Virus record (IMG/VR): IMGVR_UViG_3300022178_001225
Span: 1 to 34,867 of that record
Strand: one strand, 5' to 3'
Length of the DNA: 34,867 nt
DNA from: a virus
Taxonomy: Duplodnaviria; Caudoviricetes
In this document: in pieces, positions 1 to 22,573 of the stretch
Position numbering within the stretch: position 1 is the stretch's first letter
Layout: each line of letters begins with the position of its first letter
Position numbers and translations under genes: made by a program
Notes under the pieces: model-generated
What the model saw: the letters and a program-made list of their open reading frames with translations, nothing else
What the model was told of the DNA's origin: nothing
Databases searched by the model: none

Positions 1-2
1 GG

Positions 3-98
3 TGCCACCACGTTGCAGGCAATCGTGCGAACAAGCGTTTGATTACGGGTGACGCCGTGTCGGCGTTCCACGTTCACTGCATAACCAAATACAAATAG
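3..98 (+). CDS. 3' end of a hypothetical protein, truncated by the window edge
   Basis: Open frame CHHVAGNRANKRLITGDAVSAFHVHCITKYK ending TAG at 96-98, followed by GGAGA and the next ATG at 110. Confidence 0.5.
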   Translation, partial: CHHVAGNRANKRLITGDAVSAFHVHCITKYK

Positions 99-109
99 GG
101 AGACACACT

Positions 110-421
110 ATGAAGGCACGACCTAACCTCAACGGTAACGCACCCGTTGACTTCGCTAAGGCAGGCGAACGTCTGCTAACAGCGACACATGAATTGACGA
201 TAGTGATGAAGGGGGTCCACAGCCTCATTCACGGGAGAAACTACCAGTATCAGGATCATGCACAAGATCATCTGGACGATGATAAGTGCAAGTTCATAGA
301 TCATATGATCGCAGTACAAGCGCTGGGCGAATATGCCTATGAAGTGATCTGTGCGGGAGCGAGCATTGATGCAAAAAACGAACTGGATGAACTGCCGGTT
401 CCTAACGAACAGGAGAACTAA
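110..421 (+). CDS. Hypothetical early protein (103 aa)
   Basis: GGGAGA Shine-Dalgarno (SD) before ATG; tightly packed with neighbours. Confidence 0.75.
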   Translation: MKARPNLNGNAPVDFAKAGERLLTATHELTIVMKGVHSLIHGRNYQYQDHAQDHLDDDKCKFIDHMIAVQALGEYAYEVICAGASIDAKNELDELPVPNEQEN

Positions 422-424
422 GCT

Positions 425-622
425 ATGAATAACGTATATTGCACACAGCCCCGCAAGATTGCTGGCAAGTGGACTATGAATGTTCACGAGTATGGTGTCA
501 CGCTGGGTCAAGCCACCTTCGATAAGAAGGAGAATGCTTTGAGGTTCAGGGCAAAGCTTGACAACTGGGATAAGATTTGTCAGCGTGTGGGGGAGGAAAA
601 TCAACTTACACTAGCCGTATAG
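425..622 (+). CDS. Hypothetical early protein (65 aa)
   Basis: AGGAG SD upstream; stop TAG at 620-622 overlaps the ribozyme. Confidence 0.75.
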   Translation: MNNVYCTQPRKIAGKWTMNVHEYGVTLGQATFDKKENALRFRAKLDNWDKICQRVGEENQLTLAV

Positions 623-694
623 CCGAAACCCCCTCACTTCGGGGGTCGTATCGGGGTTTGCTCTCGATGCCTGATGAGGCAGCTATCCTCAAAT
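618..694 (+). ncRNA. Type II hammerhead self-cleaving ribozyme
   Basis: GCC(622-624)-GAAA(625-628); stem III CCCCC/GGGGG (629-633/641-645); GUC cleavage triplet (645-647); 9-bp stem I 648-656/662-670; CUGAUGA (671-677); GGC (678-680) closes stem II with 622-624. Loop I GUUUG can pair with CAAAU (690-694). Confidence 0.9.
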
Positions 695-705
695 TGGAGA
701 CTACT

Positions 706-1602
706 ATGCCTTTAGATATGCACATTACACCATCACAGATGCCTCTTGACGGGGTTGATCCCCGCATCTTTGGTGACATTCCTGACAGCCTCAACTTCAA
801 TGTGGAGTTTGAGCCGACGCGCTTGCACGGCAAGAAGTATGTAGTCAACAAGACTACGGGGGAGGCTGTTGGCATCGTGGGGTCATCGTATCCCAACAAC
901 CCACACCCTGCATTCTTTCGGCGGGTACAAGCAGCCATCACAGATAATTTGCGGTGGGATGATTTAGCTGATGCCAAAGTCAAGTGGCAGACTGCGCGCA
1001 ATGGCGCGTTTGGGTTGATGGATATTACCCTGCCAAACGTCCGGTATACTGTGACTACAAAGTCACATCAGACTGATGTGGCGCAGCGGATCGTTGCCCT
1101 GCACGGGGTGGATGGTCTGTGTAGTAATCAGACTTACTTCGGTGCAATAGACTTCTTCTGCACCAACGGCTGCATCAGTGGTGACTGGGGTAAGGTGCGT
1201 AAGAAGAACACGTCTGGCTTCAGTCTGGATAACTTTATCCACGAATTGAATGACGCAAAGACAGACTTCCACCAGCACGGACGCAAACTTCAAACGTGGG
1301 CTGATCGGGAGACTGACCTCACTGAAGTACGGGATGTTCTGGAGCGTATCATCAAGTCTCCACGTAAGGTGGAGAAGATGTCTACGTTGTATCTGGAGGA
1401 GACTTCCAAACGTGGTCACAATATGTTTGCACTGCATAGTGCCTTCACCAACTACGCTACATATGCGGATGAGCGTAATGGTTTCAAGTTAAAGGAGATG
1501 AAGAATACCAACGACACTAAAGCCGTCACGATGTTTGGCCGTGAGCAGGAAGTAAGCAAGTGGGTATCAGACCCCGCTTGGTCTGCATTGGTTGCAGCAT
1601 GA
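706..1602 (+). CDS. DUF932-like phage/plasmid protein (298 aa)
   Basis: GGAGA SD at 696-700 supports ATG at 706 rather than the track start at 577; motifs GIVGSSY, HGVDG and FFCTNG resemble the DUF932 family. Confidence 0.7.
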   Translation: MPLDMHITPSQMPLDGVDPRIFGDIPDSLNFNVEFEPTRLHGKKYVVNKTTGEAVGIVGSSYPNNPHPAFFRRVQAAITDNLRWDDLADAKVKWQTARNGAFGLMDITLPNVRYTVTTKSHQTDVAQRIVALHGVDGLCSNQTYFGAIDFFCTNGCISGDWGKVRKKNTSGFSLDNFIHELNDAKTDFHQHGRKLQTWADRETDLTEVRDVLERIIKSPRKVEKMSTLYLEETSKRGHNMFALHSAFTNYATYADERNGFKLKEMKNTNDTKAVTMFGREQEVSKWVSDPAWSALVAA

Positions 1603-1661
1603 CGGTAGAATGGATTGCAATGGGGGTGGCAGCATTGGTTGCCGCCCTCTATCTTAAATGA
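1599..1661 (+). CDS. Possible 20-aa hydrophobic micro-protein MTVEWIAMGVAALVAALYLK
   Basis: ATGA overlap with the upstream stop; its TGA overlaps the next SD; single hydrophobic helix. Confidence 0.4.
   Translation: MTVEWIAMGVAALVAALYLK
1622..1655 (+). terminator. 12-bp GC-rich hairpin (terminator-like or mRNA-stabilising)
   Basis: GGGGGUGGCAGC-AUUG-GUUGCCGCCCUC (1622-1649), including G-U pairs, followed by a weak U-tract TATCTT. Confidence 0.45.
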
Positions 1662-1673
1662 GGAGAGAGAGAC

Positions 1674-1817
1674 ATGACACTACAAGATTGGAAAGAAGAA
1701 TTGGATAAACTGCCAGTTCCTGACGACATTACGTGGTATGAGATGCAAGGCGCATTCGTACTGCGATGGGGTAAGAAGACCCGTAAGTTCTTCATTCAAC
1801 CGCACACTTACAACTGA
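1674..1817 (+). CDS. Small hypothetical protein (47 aa, MTLQDWKEELDKLPVPDD...), not in ORF track
   Basis: GAGGAG SD upstream; fills the gap; stop TGA overlaps the next SD GAGGA. Confidence 0.7.
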   Translation: MTLQDWKEELDKLPVPDDITWYEMQGAFVLRWGKKTRKFFIQPHTYN

Positions 1818-1827
1818 GGATAATAAT

Positions 1828-2286
1828 ATGGAAGATCAACAACACACACTAGTATTTCCACCGAAACGTCCCGTCAGGAGAAAGAAAACAATGCGTAAGT
1901 ATGCAAAACAAAACTTCGCTCGCATGACACAGTTCACAGAAATATTCTGTGTGGGTGGAGGCACGGTGCGGAGACATGCTGAAGCAGGACGAATAAACTG
2001 TGAGACAGACCCATTCGGTAGCAAGTGGTACAAGATTGCTGATGGTATAACTGTTGGCCTACCTCTCCGCAAAGAAGGGTATACGCGATTGTTTCCACAG
2101 ATAGCAGACAAACAAGTGGTTACTCCGCCTGTTGTCACTGAACCTAAAAGGTCTGAAGTAGTATCAGATGAGGTGATAAGTGATTTAAACAAACGTATAG
2201 ATAAACTTGTGGTGGAGAATGAGACACTGCAATTTCAGGTAGAATATCTGGAGAAGAGTTTATCTGTGTGGAAAGAAAGAGGGTAG
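1828..2286 (+). CDS. Putative DNA-binding protein: excisionase/MerR-like HTH plus C-terminal coiled coil
   Basis: GAGGA SD supports ATG at 1828; TQFTEIFCVGGGTVRRHAEAGRI is HTH-like; LNKRIDKLVVENETLQFQVEYLEKSL shows heptads. Confidence 0.5.
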   Translation: MEDQQHTLVFPPKRPVRRKKTMRKYAKQNFARMTQFTEIFCVGGGTVRRHAEAGRINCETDPFGSKWYKIADGITVGLPLRKEGYTRLFPQIADKQVVTPPVVTEPKRSEVVSDEVISDLNKRIDKLVVENETLQFQVEYLEKSLSVWKERG

Positions 2287-2675
2287 CACACGTGCTGACA
2301 ACAGCTTTTCTGTGTGCCGCAATAGCGGTGTACTATGAGGCTCGCAATCAACCGCCTGACGGTCAACGTCAGGTGGTTCATGTCATCAACAACAGGATGT
2401 ACCATTCAGGCTTTCCAAATGATGTGTGTGCTGTGGTGAAGCAGCGCCATCAGTTCTCATTCTATTGGGATGGTAAGCCTGAACGTCCCCGTGATAAGGT
2501 TGCGTGGGAAGCAGCAAAGACCGCCGTCGAAGAAGCATATGATGCACCGTATGAGAATTTGGGGGCTACCCATTATCATGCGACATATGTACAACCCTAC
2601 TGGTCTAAGTCACCTAACTTTGTTAGGTTGGCTCAGATCGGGGATCACATATTCTACGTGGAGGAAGAAAGATAA
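2268..2675 (+). CDS. SleB/Hydrolase_2-family cell wall hydrolase
   Basis: AVYYEARNQ, VINNR, FPNDVCAVVKQ..QFS, GATHYHA, IGDHIFY. Start may be the GTG at 2292. Confidence 0.88.
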   Translation: MERKRVAHVLTTAFLCAAIAVYYEARNQPPDGQRQVVHVINNRMYHSGFPNDVCAVVKQRHQFSFYWDGKPERPRDKVAWEAAKTAVEEAYDAPYENLGATHYHATYVQPYWSKSPNFVRLAQIGDHIFYVEEER

Positions 2676-2782
2676 TGTTTAACGTGGCAACCAAACGTGT
2701 GGGTGGCATTCGGTTTATCAAGATCGGACGCTTCTGTTTCAGCTACTGCATAAGCCGTATGCCTTTCCGACCTTTCAACTGA
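2675..2782 (+). CDS. Small basic protein (35 aa, MFNVATKRVGGIRFIKIGRFCFSYCISRMPFRPFN), not in ORF track
   Basis: TAATG overlap, GGAGG SD, stop overlaps the next SD. Confidence 0.65.
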   Translation: MFNVATKRVGGIRFIKIGRFCFSYCISRMPFRPFN

Positions 2783-2795
2783 GGAGTCACAGCAT

Positions 2796-3059
2796 ATGGC
2801 TAAATACAACAGTATTGAGACGCTTGCACATCTTGCACTAGCAGAGGGAGGTAAGCTGCGTATTACCTTCAATGAGTTCTGGAGTGTCTTCATTGAGTAT
2901 CCGAAGAACACTACGTGGGATGTAATCGCCACCAAAGAACCACCAAAGAAAACACTGGCAGTATTCGGGGGTAGGGGTGAGCCTTTAAGTAAGGTAGCCA
3001 ACCGTGCCAACGGTATACTGGGTAGCAAAATAAAGGAGATGAATGATGCTACTACTTGA
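2796..3059 (+). CDS. Hypothetical protein (87 aa)
   Basis: GAGGAG SD; packed operon. Confidence 0.7.
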   Translation: MAKYNSIETLAHLALAEGGKLRITFNEFWSVFIEYPKNTTWDVIATKEPPKKTLAVFGGRGEPLSKVANRANGILGSKIKEMNDATT

Positions 3060-3270
3060 AGGCATAAGCCAACACGGTAAGAACCGCATCCGAGAACACG
3101 GTGCTGAATGGAGAAGGGTTGCTACCCTGCCATCTATTCAAGCCCCCAGTCATGCTAGTCTGAAGGGACCATTCGCTAGTGTGGTGTCTGAACGAACTGG
3201 TGAGTGTAGGTGGGTATCACTGACTGATGATCCTGATTTCAGTATTATGACAAAGGAGAAAAGCGAATGA
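3043..3270 (+). CDS. Hypothetical protein (75 aa)
   Basis: AAGGAG SD; overlaps neighbours. Confidence 0.7.
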   Translation: MMLLLEGISQHGKNRIREHGAEWRRVATLPSIQAPSHASLKGPFASVVSERTGECRWVSLTDDPDFSIMTKEKSE

Positions 3271-3758
3271 ACATCTTCAAGTTAGCAGACTATCCGAAGC
3301 AATGCGCGGAGGATCATTGCGACAAGCACATTGTCAAGATGATACTGGAGTACGGACAGCTACTGTCTACTGCACATCATGTACTTGATGGTGAGGATGC
3401 ACCGGAAGGCATCTACAAAAAGACACACGTCAATCATCCATCAGCAGTGTGGGCTAGAGAAAGTAGTATGAATTATACGTGGCTATACACACTGATGGGT
3501 GAGTGTATGGATGAGTACAATCGCAGGTATGGTAAGGATCATGCCACAGAGCGTCTTGTACCTATGCTGTGTCGCAAGCCTAAGAATATGCCATTCGGTC
3601 ATCTCACTGACATACCACAATGTATGCCGGATGAATACAAACGGGAGGGTGATCCTGTTGGGGCATATCGCGCATACTACAAAGGTGAGAAGGCTCACTT
3701 TGCTAAATGGAATTACACAGCCGCACCGTACTGGTGGGACAATGAGGAGGACGACTAA
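3267..3758 (+). CDS. Conserved phage protein, pyrimidine-dimer DNA glycosylase-like family
   Basis: MNIF...HCDKHIVKMILE..QLLSTAH, THVNHPSAVWARES..NY.WLY, PQCMPDEYK, AYRAYY motifs. Confidence 0.7.
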   Translation: MNIFKLADYPKQCAEDHCDKHIVKMILEYGQLLSTAHHVLDGEDAPEGIYKKTHVNHPSAVWARESSMNYTWLYTLMGECMDEYNRRYGKDHATERLVPMLCRKPKNMPFGHLTDIPQCMPDEYKREGDPVGAYRAYYKGEKAHFAKWNYTAAPYWWDNEEDD

Positions 3759-3931
3759 TGCACACGTTCATACACAGAGTAAGCGAGATCAAGCTGTCTG
3801 AGACACAAGTATCTGCTACGTTTACTACTAAGAGGCTTATCATAACTTCAAAGAATATGGAGGATGGTAAGACCGTGACATACGAGTTCGATCTGTTTCT
3901 TACTGATGACGTTGAAGTGGAGGTGGCGTAG
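3758..3931 (+). CDS. Small hypothetical protein (57 aa, MHTFIHRVSEIKL...), not in ORF track
   Basis: TAATG overlap, GAGGAGG SD, fills the gap. Confidence 0.7.
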   Translation: MHTFIHRVSEIKLSETQVSATFTTKRLIITSKNMEDGKTVTYEFDLFLTDDVEVEVA

Positions 3932-3932
3932 T

Positions 3933-4145
3933 ATGTCACACATTGAAAGACCCCGACGGGCAGGTTACGCAGCCATCACTGATGATACAAGCGTGACTGT
4001 GTATAAGTTTGTCAGCAGGAAGGAGAGAAACATCTGGGTGGCTGACAACGGTGAGGCTATTAGGGTGGCTGGGCATGAGGCCACCCGACTACTGGCTGTT
4101 AATGATGGAAGAAAGAAACGATACGTGGAAGGATACGTAGACTAA
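3933..4145 (+). CDS. Hypothetical protein (70 aa)
   Basis: GGAGG SD supports ATG at 3933 (MSHIERPRR). Confidence 0.7.
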   Translation: MSHIERPRRAGYAAITDDTSVTVYKFVSRKERNIWVADNGEAIRVAGHEATRLLAVNDGRKKRYVEGYVD

Positions 4146-4453
4146 TGCGATACGGACACATTGTGAGACGTGAAAATCTTCAGGATGTCTTCATAAGACC
4201 TAAACTTAAATCTGTTAAGATTAGGTACAAGTACTCTAAGTGGTCTGCGTACACGGGGTACTGGCTTGAACCTGTAGACAAACCTCTAAGTGTAATTGGA
4301 GAGGAGTTAAAGCTCACCAATGAGAAAGGGGGTAGGGACTTCACATATAAGATTATAAAGGGTACTCTACATTTCACGTTGTCCTACAGAAATGTGAAAC
4401 GTGTACTAAAAGGTGTAATCACACGTGGCGATAGAAAGTTATCAAACACATGA
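4145..4453 (+). CDS. Basic hypothetical protein (102 aa)
   Basis: TAATG and ATGA overlaps with both neighbours. Confidence 0.6.
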   Translation: MRYGHIVRRENLQDVFIRPKLKSVKIRYKYSKWSAYTGYWLEPVDKPLSVIGEELKLTNEKGGRDFTYKIIKGTLHFTLSYRNVKRVLKGVITRGDRKLSNT

Positions 4454-5529
4454 CAATAGAACTACCTAAGTACGTGTCGAAGGTTACGTATCGTAATCGG
4501 AGGATCGGCTACCGTTTCTACCCGCCTAAAAAGTACATTGATGCTGGCATAGCGGAGAGAAAGACGTTTGGTGCCAATGTTCATATGGTTAAACGAATAG
4601 TCGAACCCATCCTTAAATCTATGGAGGATTGGGATGAGACCAACAGAATTAAAAAGCTTAGTAGTTCTAACAAAGTGTCTGCACTTGTGGAACACTACAA
4701 AGTGTATAGCAATTTCAGTGATTTGGCTGATACGACAACCAAAGATTATGAGTATATGTTTGGTGTACTCACGAAGCATAGTGGTGACTGTAAAATAAGT
4801 ACAGTGAACGTGCAGAAGGCTAAAGGCATATACGATGGGATAAGGAATGCTCATGGGTTGCATGTTAGCTCAAAGGCTATTCGTGTTGCAAGAGTATTGT
4901 TCAATCATGCGCTAGATAATTTACTCATAGAGAGTAATCCATTCTCTCGTGTGAAGGTTAAAACCCCACAACCTCGACGTGTAATGTGGAAGGAGGATCA
5001 GGTCAAACAATTTCTATTCACAGCCTATGATAATTGGGAGTGGCGCAACATTGGACTTATATGTCATATGGGGTATGCGTGGGTACAGAGGATGAATGAC
5101 CTTCGACTACTTACGTGGGACTGCGTTGATCTTAAAGCACGTCAGGTTACTATTTTACAAACTAAGAGGGGCGCAACTGTATACCTTCCAATAGAGGATA
5201 AGCTACATGAAATGTTGAGTGAGCAGTATGAGGACTTTGGCTTCCAACCTTACGTGGCACCACGTGTACACCCTGCTAATGGTGAGTTCTACCCTTATTC
5301 ACGTGCAGATGTATCACGTGTAGCTAAGAAAATACTTGAGGCTGCTGACTTGCCTACAAATATGTGGTTAAGTGACCTAAGACGCACGGGTACTACTGAA
5401 ATGGTGGAGAATGGTGTACCTGTTACATCAATAATGCAGGTTACGGGTCACACAACACCATCCTCACTCAGCCCATACCTAAAAAATACGTTGAAGGGTG
5501 CAACGGAGGCATTAAAAAGTAGGGGGTAA
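4450..5529 (+). CDS. int: Tyrosine recombinase / integrase
   Basis: Catalytic set R (QRMNDL), K (QTKRG), SDLRRT (HxxR with H replaced), TGH and Y (SPYLK); N-terminal arm and core-binding regions. Confidence 0.9.
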   Translation: MTIELPKYVSKVTYRNRRIGYRFYPPKKYIDAGIAERKTFGANVHMVKRIVEPILKSMEDWDETNRIKKLSSSNKVSALVEHYKVYSNFSDLADTTTKDYEYMFGVLTKHSGDCKISTVNVQKAKGIYDGIRNAHGLHVSSKAIRVARVLFNHALDNLLIESNPFSRVKVKTPQPRRVMWKEDQVKQFLFTAYDNWEWRNIGLICHMGYAWVQRMNDLRLLTWDCVDLKARQVTILQTKRGATVYLPIEDKLHEMLSEQYEDFGFQPYVAPRVHPANGEFYPYSRADVSRVAKKILEAADLPTNMWLSDLRRTGTTEMVENGVPVTSIMQVTGHTTPSSLSPYLKNTLKGATEALKSRG

Positions 5530-8363: not shown

Positions 8364-8624
8364 ATGACTAACCCTTTCTGGAAAGAGGTAGACAGTGCTG
8401 CGTGGATTAAGGAAGGCAGGCAGAAGCTATACTACGTAGACGTTCCCGTAGGTTGGAAGTATGGTTTTCCTAAAGCTATACCAAACAACGGCGTTGACTC
8501 TGTGTCAGACATATACGAATGGGTGATAGCCAACGGCTATCCCAAAGAAGAGATGGACAGATTAGGTTCATCCTTCTACATTCGTATGTGGACATACATC
8601 ACACCAGAAAGTAAGTCTCCGTAG
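8364..8624 (+). CDS. Hypothetical protein (86 aa)
   Basis: ORF directly after the lysin stop, containing DVPVGWKYGFPK and EWVIANGYP; 3' end overlaps the tRNA. Confidence 0.65.
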   Translation: MTNPFWKEVDSAAWIKEGRQKLYYVDVPVGWKYGFPKAIPNNGVDSVSDIYEWVIANGYPKEEMDRLGSSFYIRMWTYITPESKSP

Positions 8625-8691
8625 CTCAGTCGGATAGAGCAACAGCCTTCTAAGCTGTGGGTCATAGGTTCGAGTCCTATCGGGGACGCCA
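8615..8691 (+). tRNA. tRNA-Arg, anticodon TCT
   Basis: Acceptor GTCTCCG/CGGGGAC, D arm GCTC/GAGC, anticodon arm ACAGC-CT-TCT-AA-GCTGT (TCT at 8649-8651), T arm ATAGG-TTCGAGT-CCTAT, encoded CCA. Confidence 0.97.
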
Positions 8692-21500: not shown

Positions 21501-22573
21501 TAAGCACCTGCACCTACAGGTACACCCTGTAAAATACCACCTGTAGCACCACTAATAGCAGCCCTACCAAGAGAAAACTCAAGGTCTTCTCGTGATGCCG
21601 TAGGATCATACTTCCCAGTTGAGGGGTCAATGTATCCTAATTTTTCTACGCCTTGTAACATTAAATCATCTACAGTAGACATGGCTGCACTTGCAACTGT
21701 TGCTTTAACTACAGGTTTAGATATAGCAGCTTTTGCTGCGGTTTTTCCTATGTTAGACAATAGGGCGCTTCTAATTGCAGCAGTAGACGCAACTTTAACC
21801 GCCGTAACACCTGCTGCTACACCTGCCCCCGTACCTACAGGCCCAGCTAAAGTCCCCACAGCCCCAGAAAAAAGAATAGTACCTATAGTGCTGGCAGATG
21901 TTGCTGAATAATATATAGTATCACCTACAGCTTTTGCTGCATCCAATGTACTCATTTCATCATCAATAACAGAAGGTGCATTTTTTTCTATGGTATTATA
22001 TATGTCTCCAAATAAACGCTTTTCGTCATCAGACGATGTTTTCAAATGATAAATTTGATCTGCTAAATATACGTCGTTGTATAGGAAAGCTCTATAATGA
22101 TTACTCATAAATCTTTCTAAATAATCTTCGTTAGATTCGTCTTCCTCACGAGCGCCTTGTTTAGTACGTTTTGTATAATAGGTTTCAACCTTATTCATAA
22201 AAGTTTCATCTTGACTAAGTTGCTCTAAGGTAAGAACTTTATCATCATCAGCTTCTGCTGCCTCAATAGGAGTGCCATACTCAAATGCAGGCTGCGTATC
22301 TTCCTCTAGTGAAAAGACTTTAGGGTCATCTTCACTTTCTTCAAAGTCGTTAGGGCTAAAGATAGATTTTTCTCCTGCATAAGAGTAAGCATTATTTTCT
22401 TCTTGCTCTATTATAGCCTCTTCATCTTCTTGCTCTATTATAGCCTCTTCATCTTCTTGCTCATTTTTTTTAGGCAGCACACCTTTATCCTCAGATGCAG
22501 TATTATCATCAAAGTCGTTAGGGCTAAAGATAGATTTTTCGCCTGCGTAGGAATAGTCGATTGTTTCTGACAT
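18503..22573 (-). CDS. Large probable internal virion (ejection) protein (1356 aa)
   Basis: Last gene of the structural arm; acidic N-terminus, Gly/Ala hydrophobic stretch, PFPRFFVN motif. Function inferred from position and size. Confidence 0.65.
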   Translation of the reverse strand: MSETIDYSYAGEKSIFSPNDFDDNTASEDKGVLPKKNEQEDEEAIIEQEDEEAIIEQEENNAYSYAGEKSIFSPNDFEESEDDPKVFSLEEDTQPAFEYGTPIEAAEADDDKVLTLEQLSQDETFMNKVETYYTKRTKQGAREEDESNEDYLERFMSNHYRAFLYNDVYLADQIYHLKTSSDDEKRLFGDIYNTIEKNAPSVIDDEMSTLDAAKAVGDTIYYSATSASTIGTILFSGAVGTLAGPVGTGAGVAAGVTAVKVASTAAIRSALLSNIGKTAAKAAISKPVVKATVASAAMSTVDDLMLQGVEKLGYIDPSTGKYDPTASREDLEFSLGRAAISGATGGILQGVPVGAGAYLKLRNFNKKRADNMEAIKEAQKKYQKTLEATDSVTSTPSGGALDLETIQLAEAIDKARKAHNKKAKEPLMKAVKEEFVFIDNIKKEDYDKAIDALQNADVFENIGKVSIQLQKDLDKIGMLDVLGEKAAATYRGIKGDKGAPPTRVTAVIADGLDGIENLFRGSYAKELSRADEKAVLAVLDEALIKGGISKKEFVTYMSFYTNGAISVGDMTRKSMSTAAKTMARASKLKKEFFNEVYPNTSDSMRKIIDGYMEVNGNNKYQKALDNTVTGIKTFDRVRTSSLTSQLVTTARNVMSGGTMVVAQTGVNIVDSLLYHTGRGLVGLKEGNIDGAAIGRGMMDIMAESSSVIMAVLNTTKSQTLIDATMEFTPDLHKTLIRSQPDLMDASKGKFTKYANNYIETINHFNIASDSFYRRAFYMSALDKRFKNYLRDHKAKYGSALSIPATKDTKKVEIKSLMHFIESGRILDKRLITGATQDALKMTFAATPENAMAKNLLNGLEKWRPFTTVVMPFPRFFVNAIRTTYEFSPLNPAVKMTRALAGDKYTGAQYRESVAQGLIGTAGFAYAYKHLSSKEDGTPWYDVMGVDIRAMWPVSAYFAAVELLIALDQRLESGVFEEKVNRKRNSTDIKMAVETLSGFPVRSGENVNRVFGALADIFKDTDSVGGQSVNDRLTEFTAEYLGGFGTPLRMIKDVSEQLSVDSRRKDIRAGLEDESSMTQISSRMAASNLPENIFGIDVQERLPIRQYMYEDAEKFRRSPIARFVGVTFTPKSGAVEREVARVGLKRKDLLPYTGSSRLNNLQTKHYRLTAIEGLSNLINSNRYNSDVDIKTGEPMTVREKLIQQSNMIKSRAKSYREVAKASAAEADNQEADEKTTALMIKIDKMQKENATKEELAEAMGELAAYSLYHISNDRQKVLWDSKASSTKASIVEKEFARRHEEAKRKRDKGDTLYNIDYMYLRGPTIAEQKSYGLATVYLESYDESIDEAAQSRAGLGQ
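22341..22555. repeat. Nested coding repeats: 32-bp exact direct repeat and 27-bp tandem repeat
   Basis: TCAAAGTCGTTAGGGCTAAAGATAGATTTTTC at 22341-22372 and 22509-22540; CTTCTTGCTCTATTATAGCCTCTTCAT about 2.4 copies at 22399-22462. Confidence 0.9.

What the first reader, a model, noticed from the sequence alone, without database searches (positions are those of the whole stretch)
618..694. Complete type II hammerhead ribozyme between two early phage genes
Seen: the full catalytic core (CUGAUGA 671-677, GAAA 625-628, GUC 645-647) with three correctly spaced stems; stem II is the open one, which makes it type II. Loop I (GUUUG 656-660) can pair with CAAAU 690-694. Known: hammerheads self-cleave 3' of NUH to give 2',3'-cyclic phosphate and 5'-OH ends, and natural ones use stem I/II tertiary contacts or pseudoknots; their biological role in phages and bacteria is largely unresolved. 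Inferred: the early polycistronic mRNA cuts itself between 647 and 648 without needing host RNase III, which T7 uses for early-mRNA processing. The ORF track hides this element inside a spurious N-terminal extension.
Basis: partly seen in the sequence, partly recalled or inferred. Interest (0 to 1): 0.88.

Follow-up and report, generated by a model that had tools for sequence, protein, structure and literature searches.

The report
Phage intergenic type II hammerhead ribozyme
A small hammerhead-type RNA motif sits between two genes of a marine phage and is conserved in close relatives, where it likely cuts the shared message into separate pieces; this kind of element and this proposed role have been in print since 2011, so it is an ordinary new example whose one extra is a relative that carries the same two genes without it.

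Summary
The hammerhead is real. Rfam RF02276 scores 621-688 at 44.2 bits (cut-off 37). It fills the gap between a 65-aa ORF (stop 620-622) and a DUF932 gene (likely start 706) in an HMO-2011-like marine phage. Of 12 close loci, 8 carry it; the only core substitution is at the free position N7, and it changes about five times less than silent sites. The 'N-terminal extension' is not conserved. One correction: the likely pseudoknot is 658-662 with 681-685, directly after stem II, rather than 656-660 with 690-694. One relative (L236) has both genes but lacks the 74 nt, and three lack ORF and ribozyme, so it is dispensable. Likely role: self-cleavage at 647/648 gives two hairpin-capped mRNA ends and uncouples DUF932 translation. 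Cleavage and expression are untested. Perreault 2011 described this class, context and proposed role, and this scan has found such elements many times on other DNA (54 notes). New member of a known kind; interest low.

The parts
425..622 (+). ORF2, 65-aa protein of unknown function; the G of its stop codon UAG (620-622) is the outer base of stem II
   Evidence: no PHROG or Pfam family; present in 9 of 12 close loci
622..624 (+). stem II 5' arm (GCC), pairs with 678-680
   Evidence: sequence; unchanged in 8 of 8 rows that carry the element
625..628 (+). core G12 A13 A14 A15.1
   Evidence: L228 has one extra A here
628..646 (+). stem-loop III (6 bp; 7 bp in most relatives); would cap the 3' end of the upstream product
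645..648 (+). GUC triplet and predicted cleavage site between C647 and G648
   Evidence: hammerhead NUH rule (established knowledge); not tested
648..670 (+). stem-loop I (8 bp, loop 656-662); would be the 5'-terminal hairpin of the downstream product
   Evidence: G654-U664 is G-C in 5 of 8 rows; G655-C663 broken in L238 only
671..677 (+). core CUGAUGA
   Evidence: only change in relatives is U675 to C in L238, the unconstrained N7
678..680 (+). stem II 3' arm (GGC)
681..685 (+). 3' tail predicted to form the pseudoknot with loop I: A681-U662, G682-C661, C683-G660, U684/U659 mismatch, A685-U658
   Evidence: family-wide register; same geometry with different letters in CRP-7; unchanged in 8 of 8 rows
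623..696 (+). 74-nt stretch absent from L236, which keeps ORF2 and DUF932
696..699 (+). Shine-Dalgarno-like GGAG of the DUF932 gene
   Evidence: sequence; kept in relatives
706..1602 (+). DUF932 gene, 298 aa, likely start ATG 706 (58 nt after the predicted cut)
   Evidence: Pfam PF06067, 25.8 bits over cut-off 23; relatives share this start

Best explanation
A type II hammerhead motif fills the gap between ORF2 and the DUF932 gene and is predicted to cut the shared transcript between C647 and G648 without any protein, likely giving each gene its own message with a hairpin at the new end. Shown: motif, position, conservation, non-coding status, and presence or absence among relatives. Inferred steps: (1) the co-oriented small genes are co-transcribed; (2) the core folds with the help of a short loop I/tail pseudoknot and cleaves during transcription; (3) only the 3-bp stem II joins the products, so they part and re-ligation is unlikely; (4) the ORF2 message ends in stem-loop III with a 2',3'-cyclic phosphate, and the DUF932 message starts with a 5'-OH on stem-loop I, 58 nt before its start codon, an end that would be a poor substrate for 5'-monophosphate-dependent decay; (5) the insert also separates the ORF2 stop from the DUF932 ribosome-binding site, which overlap in the empty allele. 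The net effect would be to tune DUF932 and ORF2 output separately; it is an accessory adjustment, not an essential step.
For: Rfam hit over cut-off. 167 of 168 cells paired across 8 rows, with only pair-keeping changes apart from one terminal pair. Substitutions in 622-685 against the window are 3-4 of 63-64, versus 31-40 of 120-123 four-fold sites in DUF932, in 5 relatives tested (Fisher p 4e-5 to 3e-4, rows not independent). The single core substitution is at N7. The stop-to-start spacer is 83-86 nt, all three frames. The layout is the modal one for phage type II elements: an ORF stop ends 2-8 nt before G12 in 104 of 150 (shifted controls 0-3), and the median cut-to-start distance is 58 nt in the 112 of 150 with a start found. 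In 8 of 40 more distant DUF932 upstream regions a sigma-70-like site of 10/12 or better lies in this slot, against 0 of 9 in the window's clade and 0 of 98 in-gene controls (controls not matched for A+T), so this gene often appears to head its own message. Literature: prophage tandem hammerheads cleaved in vitro and in E. coli, 14 of 18 tested were active, and a halovirus transcript 5' end maps within 3 nt of its hammerhead cut (PMC3088659). A 5'-hydroxyl slows end-dependent decay (one sentence in bioRxiv 10.1101/2020.07.22.216051).
Against: No cleavage or expression data: all runs laid were contigs, which cannot show RNA ends. No two-sided compensatory change among the close relatives; they are too alike. 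The pseudoknot is weak, with a U-U mismatch at the position paired in 88-94% of the two best-filled length classes. Nearest-neighbour folding favours competing folds by 0.8 to 5.5 kcal/mol depending on the flank, though 32% of 150 natural elements score worse. Cutting hardly changes predicted access to the ribosome-binding site (6.5-7.1 before, 6.9 kcal/mol after). The element is dispensable: absent from 4 of 12 close loci, from 9 of 12 cultured phage records and from 56 of 57 DUF932 loci scanned with the descriptor. L228, 99.8% identical to the window, has an extra A in the core and no Rfam hit. The same preprint found that a hairpin at the very 5' end of a primary transcript lowered mRNA about 2.5-fold. 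The 2019 review calls the purpose of such ribozymes undefined (PMC6765202).
Confidence: 0.55

Rival explanations
1. The cut destabilises one or both products (glmS-like), damping DUF932 or ORF2 soon after infection rather than protecting them.
For: glmS self-cleavage leads to degradation by cellular RNases (PMC6765202 passages). That alphaproteobacteria carry the 5' exonuclease RNase J is recalled, not checked. The preprint's result on a 5'-terminal hairpin.
Against: Both new ends carry hairpins by the topology of type II (sequence). Distant relatives often have a promoter-like site in this slot, which fits better with more expression than with less.
Confidence: 0.2
2. Cleavage is gated by translation of ORF2: a ribosome ending at UAG 620-622 would open stem II and stem III and also block the competing 619-623/682-686 helix, so the cutting rate would report the translation state of the cell.
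For: The stop codon supplies a stem II base here, in CRP-7 and in one CRP-212 copy. A stop ends 2-3 nt before G12 in 51 of 150 phage elements. Competing folds exist.
Against: Tight packing of phage genes explains the spacing without regulation. The competing helix loses a pair in 3 of 8 rows (U686 to C), and CRP-7 folds straight into the active form. No test of gating was run.
Confidence: 0.12
3. The motif is a nearly neutral passenger that spreads by recombination among early-region modules, active or not, with little effect on the phage.
For: Patchy presence, an empty allele (L236), a likely damaged copy (L228), a weak pseudoknot. Recent spread by recombination could also make the copies alike.
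Against: The changes that do occur avoid the constrained core and keep pairs. Carriers lie on both sides of the supported splits in the ORF2 and DUF932 trees.
Confidence: 0.12
4. The stretch is protein-coding (N-terminal extension from TTG 577, or the minus-strand ORF 606-1001) and the motif is chance.
For: Both frames are open in the window.
Against: The spacer takes all three frames, with only 10-31 open codons upstream of the ATG in the 8 relatives against 44 in the window; the minus frame is stopped early (at 2-119 aa) in 5 of 8 relatives. Rfam score over cut-off.
Confidence: 0.01

Closest known systems
Type II hammerhead ribozymes with a loop I / 3'-tail pseudoknot (Rfam RF02276; Perreault et al. 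2011, PMC3088659)
   Same: Topology, intact core, short stem II, tail pseudoknot directly after stem II, position between phage genes, proposed processing of long phage transcripts.
   Different: The pseudoknot is short (3 pairs, a U-U mismatch, 1 pair). One copy in a contig that is about 64% complete, not a cluster. Five short strings of this element were not found in the paper's largest supplement (weak if that file is a gapped alignment).
Unannotated type II hammerheads in cultured Roseobacter phages CRP-7 (1 copy), CRP-212 and CRP-3 (2 matches each, one over cut-off in each)
   Same: Same layout between a stop codon and a ribosome-binding site. CRP-7 is 77.6% identical over 74 nt.
   Different: Other neighbouring genes; in CRP-212 the first copy lies downstream of the DUF932 gene, not upstream.
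Halovirus HF1/HF2 hammerhead (HHphage, PMC3088659 discussion)
   Same: Lies just upstream of a gene in an early polycistronic phage region; a transcript 5' end maps near the cut.
   Different: Core variant in an archaeal virus, 13 nt from the start codon; here the core is canonical.
RNase III processing of T7 early mRNA (recalled, not looked up)
   Same: Cuts a long early transcript between genes.
   Different: Needs a host protein and leaves 5'-phosphate and 3'-OH ends. Nothing here shows that the ribozyme replaces RNase III sites.

Membership tests
Hammerhead ribozyme type II (RF02276) | Covariance-model score above the curated cut-off, full length | tested here: met
   44.2 bits against 37, model 1-66 of 66
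Hammerhead ribozyme type II (RF02276) | Conserved core CUGANGA, GAAA and NUH | tested here: met
   671-677, 625-628, 645-647
Hammerhead ribozyme type II (RF02276) | Stems I and III closed by loops, stem II open | tested here: met
Hammerhead ribozyme type II (RF02276) | Pseudoknot (mostly 4 bp or more) between loop I and the tail just after stem II | tested here: inconclusive
   3 contiguous pairs plus a mismatch plus 1 in the family register; invariant in close relatives, so no covariation within the locus
Hammerhead ribozyme type II (RF02276) | Self-cleavage 3' of NUH with 2',3'-cyclic phosphate and 5'-OH ends | not testable with these tools
   no raw RNA reads were offered; contigs only
HMO-2011-type phages (PMC9038755) | Family A DNA polymerase homologous to the isolates, with a partial DnaJ central domain | tested here: met
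   61.5-62.2% identity to CRP-345, HMO-2011 and CRP-1 over the whole protein; PF00684 at residues 286-328, E 8e-5, below Pfam's cut-off
HMO-2011-type phages (PMC9038755) | Two CXXCXGXG motifs in that domain | tested here: inconclusive
   one exact motif at residue 292; the second has A for the first G
HMO-2011-type phages (PMC9038755) | Homologous capsid and large terminase | not tested
   not searched for directly; none evident among 42 of 133 listed ORFs scanned against PHROGs; contig about 64% complete

The most novel reading that the evidence does not exclude
Phage type II hammerheads are drop-in substitutes for an internal promoter whose cutting is gated by the ribosome that ends on the stop codon built into stem II. 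They would let a phage make single-gene messages in step with the host's translation state, and the filled and empty alleles of this locus are a natural pair with which to show it.
Probability: 0.12. Interest if true: 0.7.

Novelty: new member of a known kind. Interest (0 to 1): 0.27.

Why it matters
What self-cleaving ribozymes do for phages is still open (PMC6765202). This copy does not answer it, but it offers handles. There is a natural allele with the same two genes and no ribozyme (L236, one contig). There are relatives with a promoter-like site in the same slot. And there are unannotated copies in three cultured Roseobacter phages (CRP-7, CRP-212, CRP-3), where RNA ends could be mapped during infection. 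I found no paper linking HMO-2011-type phages to ribozymes (search, whose one listed paper I did not read; 0 occurrences of 'ribozyme' in the main text of PMC9038755). It also shows that gene callers hide these elements inside false N-terminal extensions, here and probably in the CRP-7 record.

Tried and rejected
Expression: the look-up of sequencing runs gave only small-share RNA runs kept as contigs. Laying six runs showed relatives' contigs across the element but cannot show RNA ends or transcription, so it is not used as expression evidence; run X5 laid nothing. A second empty allele: an 18-base junction pattern in viral contigs gave one unrelated match, and the filled-junction pattern gave none; L236 stays a single observation. 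ORF2 relatives in viral contigs: none. Other ribozymes in the window: none by Rfam; no second hammerhead in the contig or within 2.5 kb in close relatives. Promoter and terminator scan of 1-4500: 5 promoter-like sites, no more than shuffles (mean 6.5), none upstream of ORF2 on the + strand; 7 terminator-like sites against 3.2; not used. Cleavage as a translational switch through SD access: no effect predicted. Folding z-scores alone were weak (-0.33 and -1.51). Direction of gain or loss: the trees favour loss in L236, but most forks are open and recombination is evident. DUF932 function: searches gave nothing usable (listings only). Literature searches for stop-codon gating or later in vivo work on phage hammerheads gave nothing new; the library lacks most subscription papers. 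One supplement of PMC3088659 (.doc) could not be read, and only one of the 11 readable files was searched.

Full report
Observation. Stem III is 628-633/641-646, stem I is 648-655/663-670, and stem II, 622-624/678-680, is the open one. Rfam's Hammerhead_II model matches 621-688 end to end at 44.2 bits against a cut-off of 37 (E 5.1e-6). It is the only hit in the contig, and 0 of 14 control genomes ring. A loose descriptor gives one hit in the window and at least one in 16 of 300 shuffles, so the pattern alone is modest evidence; the model score and the relatives decide it.

Setting. The window is a whole linear viral contig, estimated 64% complete. Its DNA polymerase is 61.5-62.2% identical to those of CRP-345, HMO-2011 and CRP-1 and has a DnaJ-like insert, which marks HMO-2011-type marine phages (PMC9038755, passages). 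One of the two zinc motifs is inexact. The element lies among small co-oriented genes ahead of integrase, primase and helicase; 'early' is an inference from that order. Upstream is ORF2 (425-622, no family). Downstream is a DUF932 gene whose likely start is ATG 706 behind GGAG 696-699.

Relatives. A metagenome scan with the first 144 residues of DUF932 gave 26 loci. Twelve belong to the window's clade (L228-L238, L253; L229 is the window itself). Nine carry ORF2, and eight of these carry the hammerhead. Rfam confirms six of the seven non-self carriers; L228 has an extra A in the GAAA run and no hit, which may be an assembly slip or a damaged copy. L236 has ORF2 and DUF932 but lacks window 623-696, so its stop codon runs straight into the ribosome-binding site. 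L231, L232 and L237 lack both ORF2 and the element. Of the 14 more distant loci, 11 were scanned with the descriptor and none had it. Nor did 56 of the 57 DUF932 loci from cultured phages and viral contigs; CRP-212 was the exception, with two copies downstream of its DUF932 gene. Three of 12 cultured phage records have matches: CRP-212, CRP-3 and CRP-7. In the trees L236 groups with carriers for both ORF2 (100/99) and DUF932 (100/100), so loss is likelier than gain, but most forks are open. I found no second empty allele.

Selection. Against the window, five relatives differ at 3-4 of 63-64 positions in 622-685 but at 31-40 of 120-123 four-fold sites of DUF932 (rows are related, so the p values of 4e-5 to 3e-4 overstate independence). 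The one core substitution is at N7, the free position. Stem changes keep pairs (G654-U664 is G-C in 5 of 8 rows; C633-G641 is U-G in one), except the last pair of stem I in L238. No two-sided change is seen. The stop-to-start spacer is 83, 84, 85 or 86 nt, so the 'extension' from TTG 577 is not coding, and the minus-strand ORF is not kept either.

Pseudoknot. In the 95 with a long loop I, helices of 4 bp or more begin 0-2 nt after stem II far more often than with swapped tails (79% against 38% at offset 1). Column covariation in the 24-nt class falls on the diagonal that in the window gives U662-A681, C661-G682, G660-C683, a U659/U684 mismatch and U658-A685. The 22-nt class is shifted by one, and the window's own 23-nt class (12 elements) is mixed. 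CRP-7 has five pairs in this register with different letters at two of them. The family-register pseudoknot here is weaker than usual.

Folding. Nearest-neighbour models put the active fold level with the minimum for 622-686 and 2.4-5.5 kcal/mol above the ensemble with more flank. These models ignore the core's non-standard pairs and the pseudoknot, and 32% of the 150 natural elements score worse. Activity is likely (my estimate about 0.85; 14 of 18 tested in 2011 were active), and the rate may be modest.

How it most likely works. Cleavage between C647 and G648 leaves the products joined by three base pairs only. The upstream RNA would end 25 nt after the ORF2 stop, in stem-loop III with a cyclic phosphate. 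The downstream RNA would begin with a 5'-OH on stem-loop I, 58 nt before the DUF932 start. That layout is the mode for phage type II elements: a stop ends 2-8 nt before G12 in 104 of 150 (controls 0-3), and the median cut-to-start distance is 58 nt. A 5'-OH is said to slow end-dependent decay, though the same preprint saw lower mRNA with a hairpin at a primary 5' end (passages). In 8 of 40 distant upstream regions a sigma-70-like site sits in this slot, against 0 of 9 in the clade and 0 of 98 in-gene controls that are not matched for composition. This suggests that DUF932 often heads its own message and that the ribozyme is one way to arrange it; four clade members have neither, which weakens the point. 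Cutting does not change predicted access to the ribosome-binding site. I put 0.55 on constitutive processing into separately ended, likely more stable messages with uncoupled translation, 0.2 on processing that speeds decay, 0.12 on gating by the ribosome that ends on the stop codon within stem II, and 0.12 on a near-neutral passenger. No RNA evidence was obtainable: the runs offered were contigs.

What is known. Perreault et al. 2011 (PMC3088659; passages, section 6 and the first part of section 11 read) described natural type II hammerheads, their pseudoknot and their place between prophage genes. They showed cleavage in vitro and in E. coli and proposed processing of long phage transcripts into gene-length mRNAs. 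A 2019 review (PMC6765202, passages) repeats the proposal and calls the purpose undefined. This scan's own notes list 54 similar findings on other DNA, of which 8 were shown, and none on this genome or look-alike stretches. I found no paper on ribozymes in HMO-2011-type phages and none on stop-codon gating, within a library that lacks most subscription papers. The RNase III comparison rests on recall and was not tested.

Verdict. A genuine, conserved but dispensable type II hammerhead: a new member of a known kind. Interest 0.27, a little above routine because of the natural empty allele and the unannotated copies in cultured phages.

Noticed in passing
window 1599-1661 (+): A 20-codon hydrophobic micro-ORF overlaps the DUF932 stop (ATGA) and is kept in 10 of 10 close loci examined. 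It overlaps a 12-bp hairpin (about 1622-1649) whose variants keep pairing on one side; the hairpin could protect the 3' end of the DUF932 message.
   Followed up: partly
L236, about 1245-1257: Empty allele: the ORF2 stop codon overlaps the DUF932 ribosome-binding site, with 74 nt missing; single contig.
   Followed up: yes
L231, L232, L237, just upstream of the DUF932 start: ORF2 and the hammerhead are both absent and DUF932 sits behind a ribosome-binding site like that of ORF2, which suggests module exchange between similar start regions.
   Followed up: partly
L189 (CRP-7, MK613349) 570-660: Unannotated type II hammerhead (50.1 bits). The GenBank start of gp02 (619) lies inside CUGAUGA, the likelier start is 658, and an unannotated 49-aa ORF (422-571) ends in stem II.
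   Followed up: partly
L261-L264 (CRP-212 and CRP-3): Two type II hammerheads in each phage, on either side of a single gene (helix-turn-helix-like in CRP-212), each followed by a near-identical ribosome-binding leader.
   Followed up: partly
L004, L030, L043, L054, L239, L249, L251, L252, upstream of DUF932: Sigma-70-like promoter matches (10-12 of 12) in the slot that the hammerhead fills in the window; a more degenerate version appears by eye in the CRP-345/CRP-1 group.
   Followed up: partly
L074-L076, L094-L096, L097-L099: Viral contigs with arrays of 4 to 9 type II hammerheads within a few kb.
   Followed up: no
window 8615-8688 (+): A tRNA gene (Rfam 69.9 bits) just before the thymidylate synthase gene; no ribozyme found beside it.
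   Followed up: no
window 22341-22540: Exact direct repeats of 30 nt or more near the start of the 1356-aa minus-strand ORF, for example 22341 with 22509 and 22398 with 22425.
   Followed up: no
window 1828-2286: The 152-aa ORF is absent from several close relatives (for example L230, L233, L236), another exchangeable early module.
   Followed up: no
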